From positions 64,001-128,000 of the IMG/VR virus record IMGVR_UViG_3300023035_000005: 64,000 bases of DNA. One strand, written 5' to 3'. Source of the DNA: a virus. Below, one piece after another: positions 9,748 through 18,045 of this stretch. Under the pieces are notes generated by a model. It searched no databases and was not told the DNA's origin. It was given only the letters and a program-made list of their open reading frames with translations. A program made the translations under genes and the position numbers. Position 1 is the first letter of the stretch. Each line of letters begins with the position of its first letter.

Positions 9748-11072
9748 TTATGAACTAATTAATTTTATATAATACTTTTTATTGTTAAATAATACAGGTT
9801 TATTAGATTTAATTTTACTGTAGACACTTGTACGACCAACACCTAAGTACTGAGCGCAAAGGTTTCCAGAATCAAATATCTTAAAGATTTCCCCTGTTTC
9901 ATCTACAAGTGTTACTCCTTTACTTGCAGTTTCTTGAACTATCTTTCCAGAACTCTTATCTATTCTTTTACCTTCACTCCCCACATCATAATTAGAAGGT
10001 GAAGCTAAAAGTTTATTTATTTCAAAGTCCAAGTTAATTCTATCGTCTTTCGCTGCTTCTACTGAAGCAGTAGATAGTCTTTTACTATTCATTTGTGAGA
10101 TAATTTTTAGAATAAGCTCTTTTCCTTCAGGTAATAAATGTTTACCCTCGGATTTTAATGTTAAAATGTAGGCTCAATCTATGAAATCTGATTCTTTCTT
10201 AGTTAATCAAGATAAGCTCTTCAAAAATGGGACAAGAACCTTTAAAAGATATTCACTATTTGAAGTTTCTATTGAAACATAAGGTTTAGCATTAGGTTTG
10301 TTCTTAAAGCTAGTATATTCGTACATATGAAAAAAAGAAGATATTCTCTCGCTAAAAGACTTACCGCTATATTCATTAGCCAATTCATCCAAAAATAAAA
10401 CGATTTTTTGGAATAATAATTTATCTCTAGAAACTTGTCCTAATCTAAATTTTAAAGCCAAAGATTTGGACTCTGCATTAAAATTACCCTCACCTTCAAT
10501 AAACCCTAATAGTCAATACTTTGTAATTATTATATTATCAAAATTAAAAACTTCATAAGGACGATTCTTATTCATACCATTTTTTAAATTAGCAATTTTT
10601 AAGAAAACTTCTGATTGTTCTTGCCGATTGTCACCTTCACCTGAAACTCTATTCACATAAAGTTCAAAGGCGCACTTTCAATCTTCAAAGTCCAATCTTT
10701 TAGCTGTATTTAAAGGATTGTTACTTAAAATATCAATAAGAACTTTAATATCTGCTTGACGATTAACTTTTCACGAAGCTGACGAGCAATAAGCATAAAC
10801 TTTACCTATATTTAATTTGTCTTGGAGAAAATTTAACACAGCTAGATCATCTATATGTACTTCAATTATAAACTCAAATTGATAACCGTGCTGAGTTTTT
10901 TTAATGACAAAACAACCCTCACCGTCGATAAACCCCCTTAGTTTCATCACTCATATAGATCAGAACTAGCTATCTTTGAGTTAACCTTGATGAAAGTATC
11001 ATTAACTTTACTAGGGTTCACAGTACAATCTAAATTATCAATAGTAACACTAGTACAAAAATTTTGTTTCAT
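9748..11072 (-). CDS. Free-standing LAGLIDADG endonuclease with C-terminal HTH/NUMOD1-like domain; early frameshift, alternative ATG at 10947
   Basis: ATG overlaps the atp6 stop (TAATG); LRGFIDGEG and WLLGFIEGEG motifs; apparent 5-nt insertion near 10942-10947. Confidence 0.8.
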
Positions 11073-11279
11073 TAGTGTAAATCCAATCCGTCTTTTATAT
11101 ACCCCGCAGATAGCACTATGAATACCTGAGCTTGGATAAAGGCTATACCTAGTTCCAAACCCGAAAAAGCTATTATAAAAGACAAAGGGATAAAACCTAA
11201 AAAAAAGAATACTATACCACTTGTCATAATATTGTATGTAAAACCTGCTAAGATATTTAATAGCATATGGCCAGACAAT
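11072..11279 (-). CDS. atp6: ATP synthase subunit 6, exon 4
   Basis: (I)LSGHMLLNILAGF...ELGIAFIQAQVF...GLDLH*; preceded by omega-G at 11280. Confidence 0.95.
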
Positions 11280-11467
11280 CGTCCAACAAATTCATCCTTA
11301 TATTATACTATTTCTTAAAATATACCGCAGTATTCTAGTATACTAATTTGAACAAATATTTTCCTTTAAAAGGTTTACTTCTATTTTCTTTTAAGTATAA
11401 AGAAATACTGGGTTATCTCACTCAAATGATATATTAACCATATCCACTTTTTCTTACGTAAGACAAC

Positions 11468-13745
11468 TTAAACTAATTTAAAAAGATAAATACCTCTAAA
11501 CGGAGTAGTACGTTTCCTACTTAAATAAACGGAAATACTTGCCTGTGAAATACCCAGAGCTTCACCTGCTGAACTAAGCGAAGAATAATTAATAACTTCA
11601 TTTGTCTGAACATTAGTAACTTCTATAGCTTTACAGTTTTGTCCGACTGAGTCTAGTTTGGAGATAATGTACCCTTTAATGGTACTAACTTCCCCATTTG
11701 TAGATGAAGACTTGTTATTTTTTAAATAGTTTGAAAGTCGTCTAGGAGATATATCCAAAAATTGATATGCAGCTTTCATTGTAGAGAATTGTTGGGTAAT
11801 CCCTGTTACACTGTTAGTTAATTCTACAGCCTGTCATGAATTAGTTAGGCTAGAGGCAGAAGAGGTATCGCCCGCTAAAAAATTTAGCGCGGGAGATGTA
11901 GCTTTAGTAATCATATAACCTTTGTATGGCTTATTAGTAACTAAATACTTTTTTACAGTAGTCATATGAACACCTAAAAACAGAGCAGCCCGTATCAAAG
12001 AAGTAAATTCTTTATTCTCTCCTGTTTCGATATTAGAAAGAATAATCGCCACTCTAAAGGGATTATTTTTGGCCATTCCTTCTAATTGAGATTTAGATAA
12101 TTTTCGCCCTAACATAACCTCTCTTTTAAACTTCAGGACTTCCTCTGATTCATTTCTACTTTTGGAAGCAGCACTCATAAGTTTAAGAGAGGCTTCACTA
12201 TGTTTGTATCCCAAAGAAGATCCTGCTATTTTTAATATATTGTATTCTGGATTGAATTTATCTATGTAGAATTGCTCTCTATCCAGTACTATTGAAGTAG
12301 GACAATATTCTAAAATCTCTAATCTAAACCCAGCATAGCCATATTTTAAAAGTGCCCTACAAATAAGAGATGCACCTCTCATACTGCTCGACAAATAGCT
12401 ATGATTAAAGTATCGTCTAAATCTTTCATCCTCTTATTTTATAACTAACAGTTACTTACTTCTACTTTTTCTACCTTGTATCGCTTTTTGACTATAAATG
12501 GATCTCGAGTCATTTTCTTAAACCTTTTTGATATGGCAGCTTGTGAAACTCCCATTGCTTCTGCCGCTTTGGTTATGGAAGAATACATGGAAGTTTCATT
12601 TGTTTTTAAGTCTAAAACTTTTAGGGGTGTCCCCATATCTATACTCATTTTTGATTTCATTGTATCTGAAAGAACAGATTTTCCTAATTTGGCTAAGCTA
12701 ATTAAGGCTTTTGTTTCTTCACTATGTGTTTTACCAAAATTTGGGTTATTCATACCTTTCTTCGCAAGACTAAGTAATTTTTTAGTCTCTTCAGAAAATT
12801 TACGCCCTTTAGATGAGTTACTCATTCTAAGCCTGGCTTCCTCAGAATGAATATGTCCAAGTCTTGAACCTGCTGTAGTCAGTATATTATATTTGGGTTT
12901 TAGTAAATCAAGATAATATTGTTCTCTACTTATGGCGTTTTCTGTCGCACAGTATTCTAATATTTCTATTTGAAAGTTTTTTAAACCATACTTAACAATA
13001 GCACTATAGATTAGACTTTTACCTTTTAATAACTCTAAGGAAATATTCCTGAAGCTATAGTACTTTCTAAACCTATCTGTTAGATTTCCACTACTACCGA
13101 CATAGCTATTACCATTCTCTTTATTAACTCAACGATAAATTCCGGCTTTATTTTTATTATCCTTGAGTATAATAGATTTGTCAGTAGAAGCGTCAGAGTA
13201 TACTACAACAGGAATAACGCTTTCCTCATGTTTATCATTTGTAACCTGTGAGTAATTTCTACGCTGAGTTACATTATATTTAAAAATATACCTTTTATTT
13301 GTATAAAAATATACCTCCCTGCGGAGGGATCTACGTTCTCGTATTCACAAATTTATCCTTTGTATTTTATATTTATACGGACTTTTGTCAGTTTGAATAA
13401 GAACCTACATAACTTTTGCCTGAATCCTTATGAACTCAACGATAAACACCTGATTTACCTTTATTTTGTTTAATGATCAATCCTTTATGCTCATCAGGAT
13501 TAGTATAAATTAGAACAGGTTCAAGTTCAGAAGAAGTAGACATAGTTCTTATGTTTATTTCCCCTTTAAAGTGTGTATTACTTAAGTTGGTTGATGTAAG
13601 CCCAATTCGTTTTTGACAGTGAGTTCCGCCGTAGGTAAAGCTTTTTTGAATATAAATAGATGTTTTTAAACTTAATTTCTCTTCCATATCTGAAGGATAA
13701 GTTTTAATGAAAGATAAAATATCTTGTGTTTTGTTAACGAATAAT
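11468..13745 (-). pseudogene. GIY-YIG endonuclease D, split by a nested HEG (5' part 13391-13745, 3' part 11468-12430)
   Basis: KSGVYRW...KSYVGSYSN | DERFRRYFNH...ALLKYGYAGF...NUMOD repeats. Confidence 0.85.
12445..13339 (-). CDS. GIY-YIG endonuclease E (nested, open frame, no upstream ATG)
   Basis: KAGIYRW...NSYVGSSGNLTDRF, EQYYLDLLKPKYN, NUMOD3 (HSEETK) and NUMOD1-like end. Confidence 0.85.
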
Positions 13746-13768
13746 CGAATCACAATTTTATCCTCGAG

Positions 13769-15805
13769 TTAATATATATTTCGGTTATTTTCTGTAAAGT
13801 AGCTGTAACGACTTATATTTTTCCCGGCTGCTGCGAACGCAGCAGCGGAAATAGAAGAATATATTGTAACCTCTTTAGTGTCGACGTTAGTAACCTCCAC
13901 TTTCATAGAGGCTTTCTGAACCTTTTCTTGAATTAAATTTGTACTTTCGTCATCTGAGTTTAAGTTTAATTTAAAAGTATATCTACCTAAAACAGGTTTA
14001 TTTTGTTTCAAGTAAATGTAATGTTCAATATATCTTCTGTCTATATCTAAGGCTCGGGCTGCAGCTCTAATGGCATGGTAAGTAGTAGTAGTATTTGTTT
14101 CCAAATCAGTTACCTCAACTTCAATACCACTAGATTGACCTTTAGATAATTTAGTTAAAAATTCCGGAGATTTGAATGTCTTAGAAGCAGCTATACGCAT
14201 ATTCTCTATTGTAGCTTCAGAATGTGTTCACCCAGATCCTCGAGAAGGGCTTCCAGGTGTTTTTAATATATTATACTCAGGAGAGTATACTTCAAAAAAG
14301 TGTTTTTCTCTAGACATTAGACTATCTTTGTCACAAATTTCTAAGATAGTCAAAGTAAAGTTAGTGTAACCGTACTTTAATAATGCAATGTTAATGGGCA
14401 TACTTTTTTCGTTTAGTATTCTATTTACATTGTAATATTCCAAAAGTCTACGTCTCTGATTATGGTTTGGCCAATCAATAACTACTACTTATCAGAATTT
14501 TCCACCTTTTCAACTTGGTAACGTTTTTTAACTATAAAGGAACCTTGTGTATTCTTAACTCTTTTACTTAGTCCGGGCTGTGTAACACCCATTGCTTCAG
14601 CCGCCCTAGTTATAGAAGTATATGTTTAAATTTCATTTGTTTTTAAATCTAAAACTCTCAGTGATGTACCGGTATCTTTGCTCATTTTATCTCTAGCTGA
14701 ATCTGAAATAAAATTTTTACCTAATCTAGCTAAACTAATTAAAGCTTTAGTTTCTTTACTATGAGTTTTACCAAAGTTAGGATTATTGATACCTTTATTA
14801 GCCAAACTAAGTAATAATTTACTTTGTTCCGTGTGTTTAAACCCTACAGAAGATTTACTCATTTTTAACCTGCTTTCCTCCGAACAAATACTTCCAAGTC
14901 TTGAACCTGCTATATTATTAAGATTATATTCAGGTTTACATAAATCAATATAATATTGTTCCCTACTTATAGCATTTTCTTTTGTGCAGTATTCTAAGAT
15001 TTCTAACTGGAAATTAGAGTAACCATGCTTTAAAATTGCACTATAAATTCGGCTTTTAGCTTTTCCTATTCTAACTGAAAGATAAGAAAAATCATAGTAC
15101 ACTCTAAATCTTCGGGATAAATTTACACTACTACCTATATAGCTATTACCATTTACTTTGTTTACTCAACGATAAATACCTGCTTTATTTTTAAATTCTT
15201 TTAGAATGATAGATTTGTTCAAAAAAGCATCAGAATACGTTACAACTGCTATAAGGCTACTACTTTCTTTTGGTTGATCATTTGAAACCTGTGAGTAATT
15301 TCTACGCTGTAGAAAATTATATTTTAAAAGACACCTCTCATAAGGATACCTTTTAAAAGAGAAGGAATGTGAAAAAGATTTATGTTTTCGGAGTCACAAC
15401 TCTACCTTAACAAAAAATTATCCTAAATTGTGTACGAACTTACACTATATTTGTTATTATTCTACTAATTATTATTTTACTTATTAAAAATTATCCACAG
15501 AACTCCCTACATAATTCTTACCATTCAATTTGTTAGTTCACATATAAATACCAGATTTACCTTTAACATATTTAAGAACATTCAGTTTGTCTATGTCCGC
15601 ATCAGAAAAAACAGCTAGACCGGAAGAGGAATCGTCACTTTTTGAAGTTGAAAACATCCTTACGCCAATAGGTCTGGTACACTTCATAGAGAAGGCATAA
15701 TTTTTATATATAAAATTTAGGCTACGTGATCTCACATTATATAAGTGAAAACAATAAGATATGCCAGATCTCTTAGTAGAATCTTTAACCAAAGATAATA
15801 TAAGT
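13769..15805 (-). pseudogene. GIY-YIG endonuclease A, split by a nested HEG (5' part 15493-15805, 3' part 13769-14458)
   Basis: KSGIYMW...NYVGSSVD | RRRLLEYYNVNR...ALLKYGY. Confidence 0.85.
14485..15388 (-). pseudogene. GIY-YIG endonuclease B (nested; paralogue of E) with late in-frame TAA
   Basis: KAGIYRW...NSYIGSSVNLSRRF; TAA at 14626-14628, homology to E continues to 14485. Confidence 0.85.
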
Positions 15806-16322
15806 CGTTCACAACTTTATCCTTTCTTTAAAGGTATATATAAACTTTGTCCCTTATTTAAAAGTGTTTATATACTTTATCCTTTCTTTAAAGTGTTACA
15901 GTATAAACTTTTCGTATCATGAAAATAACCGAAAGATTATCTAAGTCTATATATAATAACATAGTTATTTTCTTTATTTTCCTTAAGGATAGGCTATTGC
16001 GATACCTTTAATCTTAGGTTACTTAGTTTCTCCTAAGAACCAGCTTTCCTGGCGACTAGAGTACACCTTACCATTAGTTTAATGTAATGGAAGAACCGTC
16101 TACTCGTTGCTCTTTTACAATAATCATTTCAAATATTACTGATTTAGATCCACGATCACCCATTCCTATTACTAGAATCTCTAATGATATTACTATACCC
16201 TCAATCATTAATGAGGCCAGGTAAGAAGTTTCCGTCTTATCTTTAGTTATTAGAGCTTTAGGGCTTCCCTGGAGTTTGGTTCTTTAACACAACAGAAATG
16301 AGGTACCTAATCTCATATTTTT

Positions 16323-16373
16323 ATGTTTGCGGCCAATCTTAAACCTAATGAGATATTCCTTGCTAAGTATGAA
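16323..16373 (-). CDS. atp6: ATP synthase subunit 6, exon 3 (51 nt)
   Basis: SYLARNISLGLRLAANI containing the conserved Arg. Confidence 0.93.
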
Positions 16374-18045
16374 CGGCTGCACTCTGGGCCAATTTTAATA
16401 TTAATCTTATAATCATATATAGCTTAAGAGATAAAAACTAAAAACCATTACTAACTTGTTCTTTCGACTAAACTTAATATATATCTTTTTTTAAAAGGAT
16501 TAGTACGTTTTTTTGAAAAATACATGGATAAACTTGAAGATTTTACGCCTAAAGCTTGGCCCGCTAAAGTAAAAGAAGGGTAAAGAGTTTCTTCATTTGT
16601 TTCTAAATCTATTACTTTTATCTTCTTTGAATTTTTTTTCTCCTTTTGTAGCGGGTCCCCTAGGTTTGAAACTTCTAACTTAGAAACTGTATACCCTTTT
16701 AGGGTTACATTGTCGCCACGTTTAACCGTATTTTTTAAAAAATACCATAAACCTGCTCTAGATATATTTAAATATTTAGCTGCATCTACCATAGAAGAAA
16801 ATTCTTTTATGTCCCCTGTCTTATTGTTAGATAATAAGATCGGTTGTGCTGTTAATTTAGTTTCATTATAAAGAGAATCAGCTTTATTATTTTCTTTATT
16901 AATTAAATGACTAGATAATATATAATTTTGGTAAGGAATACCTTTTAATATATAATTACGTACAGAAACTCTTGATATCTAGATTTTTTCAACAATAAAC
17001 TCCGGATTTACCCTCATTATCTTGCAAAATCACTTTTTTTTGTGTCAATGCATTATTATAACTCTTTACAGATATAATAGATTGAGGGTTTCCGGAATGA
17101 AAAGAACGTTTATGTAATATTATGCTATCCTTTTTCCCTGAGGGATAAGGGACAATTTTTCGTTTATATAAATCATCAATCATATTATATTCAGGTTTTA
17201 TGCAATCTACATAATAAAGACAACGCGCTATTAGAATATTTGTATCGCAATACTCTAAAATTTCTAAACTAAACCCTGCATAACCGTATTTTAATAATGC
17301 CTTATAAATTCTCATATTCCGTTTAGGATAAGATATATGATTATAATTAAAATATTGTTTAAATCTTATACTCAAATTTTTAGCTGACCCTATGTAAGAT
17401 TTACCTGAATCTATGTGTACTCATCGGTAGACACCTGTTCGCCCTTTATTTTCATTGACAATTAATTCTTTATCCTTATCGGAGTCAAGATAAACTTTCA
17501 CAGGTTCTATTTTAGACGATGTAGACATAGTTCTTTTACAAGTAAAGGTATAACGACCTATTTTATACAGCTGTCTATAGGACATATTAATAGTACGATG
17601 TCTAGCTTCAGTCACAGGATAAAAATCAGAATTATTAAATATTCATCTTAAATATTGAGTTAAAGATATAATAAATAGGCTACTTATTCGTAATTGACCC
17701 AGACTATGCAGAAACTTTAATTTGAGTTACTTAATTCTACTCAAAACCACTTTCATGGCGACTAGAGTACACCTTACAGTATTCAAGTAATACTGAAGAA
17801 CCGTCTACTCGTTGCTCTTTTACAATAATATAATTTTGTAAACAATCCATCAAATGTAATTATTAATATATATAATCGATTTAGATCCGCGATCACCCAT
17901 TTCTCGATTGATCATCTTATAACTTATTACTATACCTGAGTAATTACTTCAGCCGCCTATATACTTGCATATGTAGGTTTAGTATTATAAGCTTTAGGGC
18001 TTCCCCGGAGTTTGGCTCTTGTTCACAAAGTAACCTAAATACTAT
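16374..18045 (-). mobile_element. atp6 group I intron at ~521 (IC2-like)
   Basis: Core motifs at 17755-18020; TCTGGGTCAATT pairs with AATTGGCCCAGA just before omega-G. Confidence 0.9.
16451..17615 (-). pseudogene. Degenerate/chimeric GIY-YIG ORF
   Basis: RTGVYRW...SYIGS, then a second GIY start (KSGVYCW) and a frameshift before the NUMOD1 tail. Confidence 0.75.

What the first reader, a model, noticed from the sequence alone, without database searches (positions are those of the whole stretch)
11280..16002. Array of in-frame decoy 3' splice sites, one in front of each of four GIY-YIG genes in atp6 intron 572
Seen: the true acceptor is AAGGATGAATTTGTTGGACG|A (omega-G 11280). Close copies precede each ORF: AAGGATAAAGTTGTGAACG|A (15806), AAGGTAGAGTTGTGACTCCG|A (15389), GAGGATAAAATTGTGATTCG|A (13746) and AAGGATAAATTTGTGAATACG|A (13340). 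All can pair with one upstream strand just after the core (TCGCAATAGCCTATCCTT, 15985-16002). In all four, joining exon 3 (...AAC AT|) to the following A puts the ORF in frame with atp6. ORFs B and E have no ATG before the GIY motif. Established: alternative 3' splice sites that express a P9-located ORF are known from Podospora group I introns. Inference: one ribozyme core serves five competing acceptors, and each invading HEG carries its own plug-in acceptor. I do not know a description of a fourfold array with nested carriers.
Basis: partly seen in the sequence, partly recalled or inferred. Interest (0 to 1): 0.92.

Follow-up and report, generated by a model that had tools for sequence, protein, structure and literature searches.

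The report
Repeated splice-acceptor mimics before intron endonuclease genes
A self-splicing intron in a fungal mitochondrial atp6 gene carries, in front of each of its four selfish endonuclease genes, a conserved in-frame copy of its own 3' end, which most likely works as an alternative splice site to get those genes translated, though no RNA evidence could be obtained.

Summary
The atp6 group I intron (16322-11280, minus strand) ends in AGGAT-N4-TTGTTGGACG|A. Copies end at G 15806, 15389, 13746 and 13340, one before each GIY-YIG reading frame, all in the frame set by exon 3 (..AAC AT|). A pattern for the motif hits 4 times against 0.19 expected.

I fetched about 25 homologous atp6-572 introns from other fungi. 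Every endonuclease module in them (about 40: three GIY-YIG lineages and one LAGLIDADG) has the same motif in the same frame. One intron carries four copies plus the true site. Single-gene introns already have one copy.

Evidence that the copies matter:
- The motif is an invariant island between diverging flanks.
- Leaders downstream vary in length but stay open, and mostly lack ATG.
- Where the upstream partner strand changed C to A, the copies changed G to U.

This supports the alternative 3' splice-site reading, but it is not proven.

In this window A and D are split by B and E, and B has an internal stop, so only E looks complete.

The principle is known from Podospora nad1-i4 and "splicing-mediated core creep". 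The new part is the conserved, reusable cassette and the size of the array. The scan holds no earlier follow-up of this on other DNA.

The parts
16323..16373 (-). atp6 exon 3 (51 nt, ..SYLARNISLGLRLAAN + AT), ending in T 16323, which forms the U·G pair of P1.
   Evidence: Translation. It matches Atp6 proteins of other fungi..LIEFISYLARNISLGLRLAANILSGHMLL...
11280..16322 (-). Group I intron atp6-572 (5043 nt, phase 2).
   Evidence: Exon junctions come from translation. Homologous introns of 1.6-7.4 kb exist in about 25 other loci.
16037..16318 (-). Ribozyme core, P1 to P9.
   Evidence: Rfam Intron_gpI matches the full model at 25.7 bits, E 1.2e-4, when the core is searched alone. That is below the gathering score of 50, and the match is not seen in whole-window scans. 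The consensus fold of 10 homologues has 22 pairs with compensatory changes.
15985..16002 (-). Upstream (5') strand of the long-range helix after P9.1, here called P9.2: TCGCAATAGCCTATCCTT.
   Evidence: It pairs with the true 3' end. Covariation across loci: ATCCTC with GAGGAT versus ATCCTT with AAGGAT; CCACAA with TTGTGG; AACAA with TTGTT.
15806..15824 (-). Acceptor mimic A: AAGGATAAAGTTGTGAACG, followed by A 15805.
   Evidence: It is near-invariant in 19 distinct homologous introns. An in-frame TAA sits inside the motif, 4 codons before the CGA codon.
15484..15805 (-). Host gene A, N-terminal part (leader plus GIY..YVGSSVDNF, then stop), cut off by insert B.
   Evidence: Intact relatives of 292-342 aa read ..YVGSSVDLRRRLLEYYN...
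15389..15408 (-). Acceptor mimic B (degenerate): AAGGTAGAGTTGTGACTCCG, followed by A 15388.
   Evidence: It has the best duplex energy with the 5' strand, -17.7 kcal/mol.
14626..15388 (-). Inserted GIY-YIG gene B (E-type lineage), 254 codons up to an in-frame TAA at 14626-14628. The conserved frame continues to about 14492.
   Evidence: B and E align along their whole length, including leader and motif.
13769..14488 (-). Host gene A, C-terminal part (rest of the GIY-YIG domain plus two NUMOD1), still open.
13746..13765 (-). Acceptor mimic D: GAGGATAAAATTGTGATTCG, followed by A 13745.
   Evidence: The same motif precedes D-type genes in L006 and L008.
13373..13745 (-). Host gene D, N-terminal part (leader plus GVY..YVGSYSN, then stop), cut off by insert E.
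   Evidence: Relatives P0002, P0004 and P0005 carry the same leader.
13340..13360 (-). Acceptor mimic E: AAGGATAAATTTGTGAATACG, followed by A 13339.
12445..13339 (-). Inserted GIY-YIG gene E (297 codons from the join; GIY-YIG, NUMOD3, HTH). It is the only apparently complete enzyme of the four.
   Evidence: 1413 relatives.
11468..12433 (-). Host gene D, C-terminal part (321 codons, NUMOD1), still open.
11280..11299 (-). True 3' end of the intron: AAGGATGAATTTGTTGGACG, with omega-G at 11280.
   Evidence: The junction gives ..LAAN-I-LSGHMLLNILAGF... The motif is conserved at the 3' end of every homologous intron.
11072..11279 (-). atp6 exon 4 (last exon, including the stop codon).

Best explanation
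The atp6-572 group I intron closes its long 3' region with a long-range helix. The upstream strand lies just after P9.1, and the downstream strand is AGGAU-N4-UUGUKG, followed 1-3 nt later by ACG|. That helix brings the last intron G into the catalytic core.

Each endonuclease module inside the intron starts with a copy of this downstream strand plus the G. The copy sits so that a join from exon 3 (..AAC AU|) continues in frame into a start-codon-less leader and then the nuclease domain.

Inferred mechanism:
- In a fraction of transcripts the core uses one of these copies as its 3' splice site.
- That makes an mRNA in which Atp6 residues 1-191 are fused to the endonuclease.
- The endonuclease is then translated with atp6's signals and probably cut free.
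- The distal, true site yields atp6 mRNA.

The cassette (motif plus leader) is reused by different endonuclease genes.

In this window, two host genes (A, D) each carry a cassette, and each was later split by an inserted gene (B, E) that brought its own. So A and D now lead to truncated products, B is cut short by a stop, and only E can give a full enzyme.

Shown: motif, frame, pairing potential, conservation, and one compensatory change. Inferred: use in splicing, fusion translation, and processing.
For: 1. The motif is real and non-random in the window, and all four copies are in frame.

2. About 40 endonuclease modules in about 25 homologous introns all carry the motif in the phase-2 frame. 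These include single-gene introns of 1.6 kb and one intron with four copies plus the true site (L006).

3. The constraint is at the nucleotide level, not the peptide level.
- In the E lineage, AGGAT lies 1, 2, 4 or 5 nt before TTGTGA.
- In L014 and L017 it lies upstream of an in-frame stop.
- The codon before CGA varies (Leu, Pro, Ser, Ile) but keeps its third base A in 13 of 15, preserving ACG|A.
- In the A lineage, AAAGGATAAAGTTGTGAACG is an invariant island between diverging flanks.

4. The A-type ORF opens at an in-frame TAA inside the motif and has no in-frame start codon nearby.
- Leaders of 79-96 codons (A) and 62-79 codons (E) differ by many in-frame indels.
- They are always open, while the other two frames hold 9-23 stops.
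- 7 of 13 A leaders and most E leaders have no ATG.

5. There is a compensatory change. The 5' strand is ATAACAA only in L008 and L092. There the A copy (both loci) and the D copy (L008) read TTGTTA instead of TTGTGA.

6. The copies keep the same spacing from helix to G as the true site (9-11 nt). Most keep AC before the G, which can pair with GU in J7/9 (P9.0). P10 is essentially absent, so nothing in the exon favours the true site.

7. E-type genes that lack their own motif are fused in frame to the host's N-terminal part, which has one (P0002, P0004, P0005; L006 at 6603).

8. There is precedent: alternate 3' splice sites fusing intron ORFs to the upstream exon (Sellem & Belcour 1994, cited in PMC7902536; "splicing-mediated core creep", PMC8393795).
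Against: - No RNA evidence was obtained.
- No Atp6-endonuclease fusion protein was found in the 5.8-billion-protein set, even with a junction peptide as query. This is weak, because rare isoforms are seldom assembled.
- The copies pair with the 5' strand as well as or better than the true site, and they are transcribed first. It is unexplained how enough atp6 mRNA is made.
- The outer pair ATCCT[C/T] covaries only with the true site. The copies keep AAGGAT.
- Some E copies have a weakened second helix (L006 TTGTTA, L017 TTGTTT) although the gene is intact.
- TTG is invariant in the E motif and is an allowed start codon in code 4, so E-type genes could start there.
- Invariant TTG and CGA codons are not special. 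Other conserved Leu and Arg columns are equally invariant.
- Frame and motif are inherited within lineages, so the number of independent observations is small.
Confidence: 0.55

Rival explanations
1. The copies are alternative partners of the upstream strand with a structural role only. They close a short local helix so the ribozyme folds while the long ORF region is being transcribed, or they are junction duplications kept by selection on folding. The endonucleases are then translated from non-AUG starts: TTG in the E motif, ATA or TTA in the A leaders.
For: - The compensatory change shows pairing, not splicing.
- The first copy always lies 150-250 nt after the 5' strand.
- TTG is invariant in the E motif (15 of 15).
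- ORF callers pick alternative starts such as MLSLVK.. and MWLREH...
- No fused proteins are on record.
Against: - A purely structural role does not need the conserved ACG|A after the helix.
- It does not need the fixed reading frame.
- It does not need copies several kilobases downstream, before D-, E- and LAGLIDADG-type genes.
- The A lineage has no conserved in-frame start of any kind after its TAA. L011 reads CGA TTT TTC ACT AAA...
- ATG never replaces TTG in 15 E copies, which is odd for a start codon.
Confidence: 0.25
2. The copies are sites of ribozyme-catalysed 3'-site hydrolysis or other processing, not exon ligation. Cutting there releases separate endonuclease mRNAs whose 5' ends lie at the start of each leader.
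For: - The same sequence features as for splicing apply: helix, AC-G, and the position in front of every module.
- Hydrolysis at the 3' splice site is a known side reaction of group I ribozymes (established knowledge, not tested here).
Against: - Released RNAs would still need a start codon, and most leaders lack ATG.
- Conservation of the atp6 phase-2 frame in about 40 modules would be unexplained.
Confidence: 0.1
3. The copies are non-functional relics. Each endonuclease gene arrived by a recombination that duplicated the intron-exon junction, and the resemblance and frame are simply inherited.
For: - The A leader begins ..ATA TTA TCT (I L S), like exon 4's ATA TTA TC. (I L S), which hints at a junction duplication.
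- L001 shows recombination between two copies.
- Frame and motif are family-level constants.
Against: - Relics would decay. Instead the motif is the most conserved 20 nt between core and nuclease domain, across introns whose cores are only 75-95% identical.
- The copies follow a change in the partner strand.
- Leaders keep their frame through many indels.
Confidence: 0.1

Closest known systems
Alternate 3' splice sites of Podospora anserina nad1-i4 and cox1-i7 group I introns (Sellem & Belcour 1994), and the two-ORF nad1-i4 with four splicing pathways (Sellem & Belcour 1997). I know these papers from memory; they are cited in PMC7902536 and PMC8393795, and the originals were not held.
   Same: - A mitochondrial group I intron.
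- A GIY-YIG ORF in the 3' region, discontinuous with the upstream exon and without a start signal.
- An upstream G that would fuse the ORF in frame to the 5' exon.
- Mobile ORFs that add to an existing intron.
   Different: - Here the acceptor is a recognisable copy of about 20 nt of the true 3' helix strand.
- It is conserved across many fungi.
- It is reused by three GIY-YIG lineages and a LAGLIDADG lineage.
- It is present four times in one intron besides the true site, including inside genes that interrupt other genes.
- Splicing was demonstrated there by PCR. It is not demonstrated here.
"Core creep" and "splicing-mediated core creep" (Edgell 2011; Guha 2018; Zubaer 2018; reviewed in PMC8393795, PMC7902536 and PMC10448965).
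   Same: The intron ORF gains the host gene's translation signals by becoming continuous with the upstream exon, either directly or through an alternative splice.
   Different: Those cases mostly involve tandem or nested intron modules, each with its own core. Here a single core would serve all acceptors.
atp6-572 intron of Ophiostoma ips and relatives, reported to encode two GIY-YIG ORFs (PMC12308204).
   Same: The same insertion site and the same kind of cargo. It probably has the host-plus-insert arrangement seen here.
   Different: In the passages I retrieved, that paper only lists the ORF content. I found no mention there of an acceptor motif, frame or nesting.
Mobile endonuclease ORFs that insert into the 3' part of atp6 or other genes and bring a duplicate of the displaced gene end (known from Allomyces atp6 and others; from memory).
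   Same: A selfish ORF enters in frame, and a duplicated downstream segment restores the host gene. The A leader's I-L-S start hints at such an origin.
   Different: Here the duplicated segment is the intron's 3' helix strand and splice site, so the ORF ends up inside the intron, not in the exon.

Membership tests
Group I intron | Conserved core P3-P9 with a G-binding P7, a U·G pair at the 5' splice site, and a terminal G. | tested here: met
   - Rfam RF00028 matches the full model at 25.7 bits, E 1.2e-4, on the core alone. This is below the gathering score of 50.
- The consensus fold of 10 homologues recovers P7, P3/P8, P9 and P9.1 with 22 compensatory pairs.
- Exon 3 ends in U, opposite G of GUGUU, and the intron ends in G.
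Group I intron with an alternate 3' splice site expressing an intron ORF (Podospora nad1-i4 type) | The ORF is not continuous with the upstream exon and lacks an initiation codon. | tested here: met
   - Stops lie between the core and each ORF.
- B and E have no ATG before GIY.
- 7 of 13 A-type and most E-type leaders in homologues lack ATG.
Group I intron with an alternate 3' splice site expressing an intron ORF (Podospora nad1-i4 type) | A candidate internal G, with the same local context as the true site, whose use puts the ORF in frame. | tested here: met
   same helix strand, same spacing, mostly the same AC-G, and always phase 2.
Group I intron with an alternate 3' splice site expressing an intron ORF (Podospora nad1-i4 type) | RNA molecules with the predicted alternative junction exist in vivo. 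| not testable with these tools
Searches for fused proteins found none.
GIY-YIG homing endonucleases | A GIY-YIG catalytic domain plus NUMOD or HTH DNA-binding modules. | tested here: met
   Pfam PF01541, PF07460 and PF07453 in B, E and the A and D halves. Cleavage activity was not tested.
Twintron or nested intron (an intron with its own core inside an intron) | A second ribozyme core inside the outer intron. | tested here: not met
   No further group I or group II match lies in 15985-11280. Inserts B and E (about 1 kb) are almost entirely ORF. The only paralogous core lies in the separate upstream intron.

The most novel reading that the evidence does not exclude
The unit [downstream strand of the P9.2 helix + terminal G + in-frame, start-less leader ending in R-x-F/Y-S-T-S] is a portable expression cassette. 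Unrelated homing endonuclease genes (three GIY-YIG lineages and a LAGLIDADG lineage) capture or bring it, so a single ribozyme core serves up to five competing acceptors. The competition between them sets how much atp6 mRNA versus endonuclease mRNA is made. An endonuclease that parasitises another endonuclease gene carries its own cassette, so that it does not depend on its broken host.
Probability: 0.35. Interest if true: 0.75.

Novelty: new variant of a known kind. Interest (0 to 1): 0.6.

Why it matters
How start-codon-less endonuclease genes deep inside organellar introns get translated is only documented for a handful of cases. This intron family would give a sequence-defined, widely conserved acceptor element, with natural variants carrying one to four copies besides the true site. 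That makes three questions directly testable:
- how a group I ribozyme chooses among competing 3' splice sites;
- how a host gene and its selfish cargo share one transcript;
- how new endonuclease genes plug into an existing expression route.

It also bears on annotation. Many of these ORFs are currently given arbitrary start codons.

Tried and rejected
- **Fused transcripts in protein databases.**
  - The best 120 hits to E show no ATP-synt_A domain.
  - 83 longer hits to the A N-terminal part show none either.
  - A 46-residue junction peptide, built from the exon 3 tail and an A-type leader seen in the tool outputs, hit only plain Atp6 or plain A-type proteins.
  - The over-long Atp6 hits are N-terminal extensions.
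- **Codon argument.** I expected the invariant TTG and CGA in the E motif to be exceptional. The control showed that many other conserved Leu and Arg columns are just as invariant, and that CGN codons are common in these ORFs. I dropped this argument.
- **Whole-window duplex scan.** The five sites are not the very best pairers in 128,000 windows; a few GC-rich sites score lower in energy. They are only the top 0.1-1.3%.
- **P10.** I looked for pairing between the guide sequence and the bases after each G. Only the first A:U is available, at the true site and the copies alike. P10 therefore neither supports nor discriminates.
- **B and E inserts as small introns, or removal through an alternative 5' site.** There is no room for a core and no P1-like sequence at their 5' borders. 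Rejected.
- **Shine-Dalgarno reading of AGGA.** The spacing to TTG of 1-5 nt is too short, and fungal mitochondria are not known to use it. Rejected.
- **Rfam at gathering threshold, and at E-value threshold on 8 kb.** Both miss this core. It appears only when searched alone.
- **Original papers.** The Sellem & Belcour papers were not held.


Full report
**What is in the window**

The region is fungal mitochondrial DNA (TGA read as Trp), with atp6 on the minus strand.
- Exon 3 is 51 nt (16373-16323) and ends ..GCA AAC AT.
- Exon 4 starts at 11279 (A TTG TCT GGC CAT ATG..). Together they give the conserved ..LRLAAN-I-LSGHMLLNILAGF...
- The 5043-nt intron between them is a group I intron.
  - Its core (16318-16037) matches Rfam Intron_gpI over the full model. 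The score is only 25.7 bits, and the match appears only when the core is searched alone (missed).
  - A consensus fold of ten homologues recovers P7, P3/P8, P9 and P9.1 with 22 compensatory pairs.
- The strand TCGCAATAGCCTATCCTT (16002-15985) follows P9.1.

The rest of the intron holds four GIY-YIG reading frames, but they are nested.
- Host gene A is 15805-15484 plus 14488-13769. Host gene D is 13745-13373 plus 12433-11468.
- Each is split right after the ..YVGSS codons by an insert of about 1 kb that is almost entirely ORF: B (15388-14626 and onward) and E (13339-12445).
- B and E align along their whole length, leader included.
- B has an in-frame TAA at 14626-14628. E is intact.

**Check of the observation**

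Every sequence and coordinate in the finding is correct.
- A motif pattern hits 4 times against 0.19 expected, and 0 of 100 shuffles reach 4. B is a degenerate fifth copy.
- All four copies are in the frame set by ..AAC AT|.
- All can pair with the upstream strand. Energies are -14.5 to -17.7 kcal/mol, the top 0.09-0.65% of all windows. The true site scores -13.4.

**Related sequences**

A protein search with E found 1413 relatives. Their ORF calls nearly all begin (M/L)WLREH.P, which is TTG TGA xxA CGA GAA CAT, so the motif sits at the head of the called ORF.

I fetched the DNA of relatives. About 25 distinct loci hold the same atp6 intron, with cores 75-96% identical and exon 4 downstream. 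Three things follow.

First, the true 3' end carries the motif in every homologue, and it covaries with the upstream strand:
- ATCCTC with GAGGAT versus ATCCTT with AAGGAT;
- CCACAA with TTGTGG;
- AACAA with TTGTT.

The long-range helix is therefore real.

Second, every endonuclease module in every homologue is preceded by a copy, always in the phase-2 frame.
- 19 A-type modules carry ACCTTTAAAGAAAGGATAAAGTTGTGAACG|A.
- 16 E-type modules carry AGGAT-N1-5-TTGTGAxxACG|A.
- 3 D-type and 2 LAGLIDADG modules also carry it. The LAGLIDADG modules sit behind an A-like leader.
- Single-gene introns of 1.6-1.76 kb already have one copy plus the true site.
- L006 (7.4 kb) has four copies plus the true site.
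- The motif occurs at 1.06 per kb inside these introns against 0.10 per kb elsewhere in the fetched loci.

Third, the constraint is on nucleotides.
- In the E lineage, AGGAT keeps no fixed frame relative to TTGTGA (spacing 1, 2, 4 or 5 nt). In two loci it lies upstream of an in-frame stop.
- The codon before CGA changes amino acid but keeps its third base A.
- In the A lineage, the 20-nt motif is an invariant island between diverging flanks.

**Is the leader translated from the motif onward?**

- In the A lineage the frame opens at a TAA inside the motif, with no start codon of any kind conserved after it.
- Leaders run 79-96 codons (A) and 62-79 codons (E) to the GIY motif.
- They differ by many indels, yet they are always open and in frame. 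The other two frames hold 9-23 stops over the same stretch.
- 7 of 13 A leaders and most E leaders have no ATG. Where ATGs exist, their positions differ.
- The Met of MFSTS, used as the start in some annotations, is V, A or T in other lineages.

**Do the copies pair with the upstream strand in vivo?**

- In L008 and L092 the upstream strand reads ATAACAA instead of ATCACAA.
- In exactly those loci the A copy reads TTGTTAACG, and the D copy (L008) reads TTGTTATCCG. Everywhere else they read TTGTGA.
- This C-G to A-U change sits at an internal helix position. The two loci may share one ancestral event, so the evidence is good but thin.
- Against this, the outer pair covaries only with the true site, and a few E copies have a weakened second helix.

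**Interpretation**

The best reading is that the copies are alternative 3' splice sites.
- They fuse exon 3 to each module, so the endonucleases are made as Atp6 fusions and then released.
- The spacing from helix to G (9-11 nt) matches the true site.
- AC before the G can form P9.0 with GU of J7/9.
- P10 is essentially absent, so the exon gives the true site no advantage.
- E-type genes that lack their own copy are fused in frame to the host's N-terminal part, which has one. That either/or pattern fits a requirement for an in-frame acceptor.

In this window, acceptors A and D now lead into truncated genes, and B into a shortened one. Only E is a full candidate enzyme.

**What is missing**

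No RNA evidence was obtained. No Atp6-endonuclease fusion is on record, even with a junction-peptide query. It is also unexplained how the distal true site competes with better-pairing proximal copies.

Rival readings:
- a purely structural role with non-AUG starts; TTG is invariant in the E motif;
- processing by hydrolysis;
- inert relics, which is the least likely given the conservation.

**Comparison with what is known**

- Alternate 3' splice sites that express start-less intron ORFs were shown in Podospora nad1-i4 and cox1-i7.
- A two-ORF nad1-i4 with four splicing pathways was also described.
- The idea is now called splicing-mediated core creep (PMC7902536, PMC8393795, PMC10448965).
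- The atp6-572 intron with two GIY-YIG ORFs is listed for Ophiostoma ips (PMC12308204). It is the only paper in the library that names this intron.

What I did not find described:
- the conserved copy of the 3' helix strand as a reusable cassette;
- its use by four endonuclease lineages;
- arrays of up to four copies;
- its presence in genes that interrupt other endonuclease genes.

I therefore class this as a new variant of a known kind, with moderate to high interest and 0.55 confidence in the mechanism.

Noticed in passing
window 15494-14455 and 13400-12440 (minus strand); also L002, L006, L008, L010-L017, L024: The E-type GIY-YIG lineage is found inserted at one spot, right after the ..Y[VI]GSS codons of another GIY-YIG gene. 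This holds in nearly every homologous atp6 intron, so it is an endonuclease gene that homes into endonuclease genes. Upstream of the insert lies a degenerate copy of the host's YVGSS-coding stretch (..TATAGTATAAGTTCG..). Intact hosts without the insert are also common (P0121 and others).
   Followed up: partly
window leaders: A ..VRMFSTSKSD (about 15660), D ..IRTMSTSSE (about 13545); relatives P0002, P0003, P0014, P0022: A short motif R-x-[F/Y/M]-S-T-[S/L] recurs just before the nuclease domain in the A, D and LAGLIDADG leaders. It also appears at host-E fusion junctions (GRSFSTLNKE, ARPFSTLNKE). It resembles an R-3 type matrix-peptidase cleavage motif (from memory). If so, it could be where a fusion precursor is cut.
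   Followed up: no
L006:2872-10246: One metagenomic atp6-572 intron is 7.4 kb long and holds four cassettes plus the true acceptor: an intact A-type gene, an E-type gene, a D+E in-frame fusion, and a LAGLIDADG gene behind an A-like leader.
   Followed up: partly
L001:5195-5240 (and L026): The host N-terminal part is missing, and the sequence reads ..AAAGAAAGGAT|AGGATATTGTGATTACG... It looks like a deletion by recombination between the A copy and the E copy of the motif, which would place the E gene directly behind the first acceptor.
   Followed up: no
window 18045-16374 (minus strand): The preceding atp6 intron is also phase 2 (..GAA TTC AT|) and has a paralogous core, 69.6% identical to the atp6-572 core. 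It has its own long-range helix: CTGCATAGTCTGGGT pairs with GCCCAGAGTGCAG just before its last G at 16374. Its frameshifted GIY-YIG ORF (17726-16451) starts right after the upstream strand, with an in-frame ..CAATTACG|A.
   Followed up: partly
window 15893-15874 and 15833-15814 (minus strand): A 20-nt direct repeat, CTTTAAAGAAAGGATAAAGT. The first copy is a half-motif without TTGTGAACG. Between the copies lies an inverted repeat (GTATATAAAC / GTTTATATAT). The same arrangement is present in L002, L008, L010, L014 and L075.
   Followed up: no
window 14626-14628 (minus strand): Gene B has a single in-frame TAA where E has a sense codon. The frame downstream stays open and conserved for about 45 more codons. 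This is either a recent knockout that removes the C-terminal HTH, or a sequencing error.
   Followed up: no
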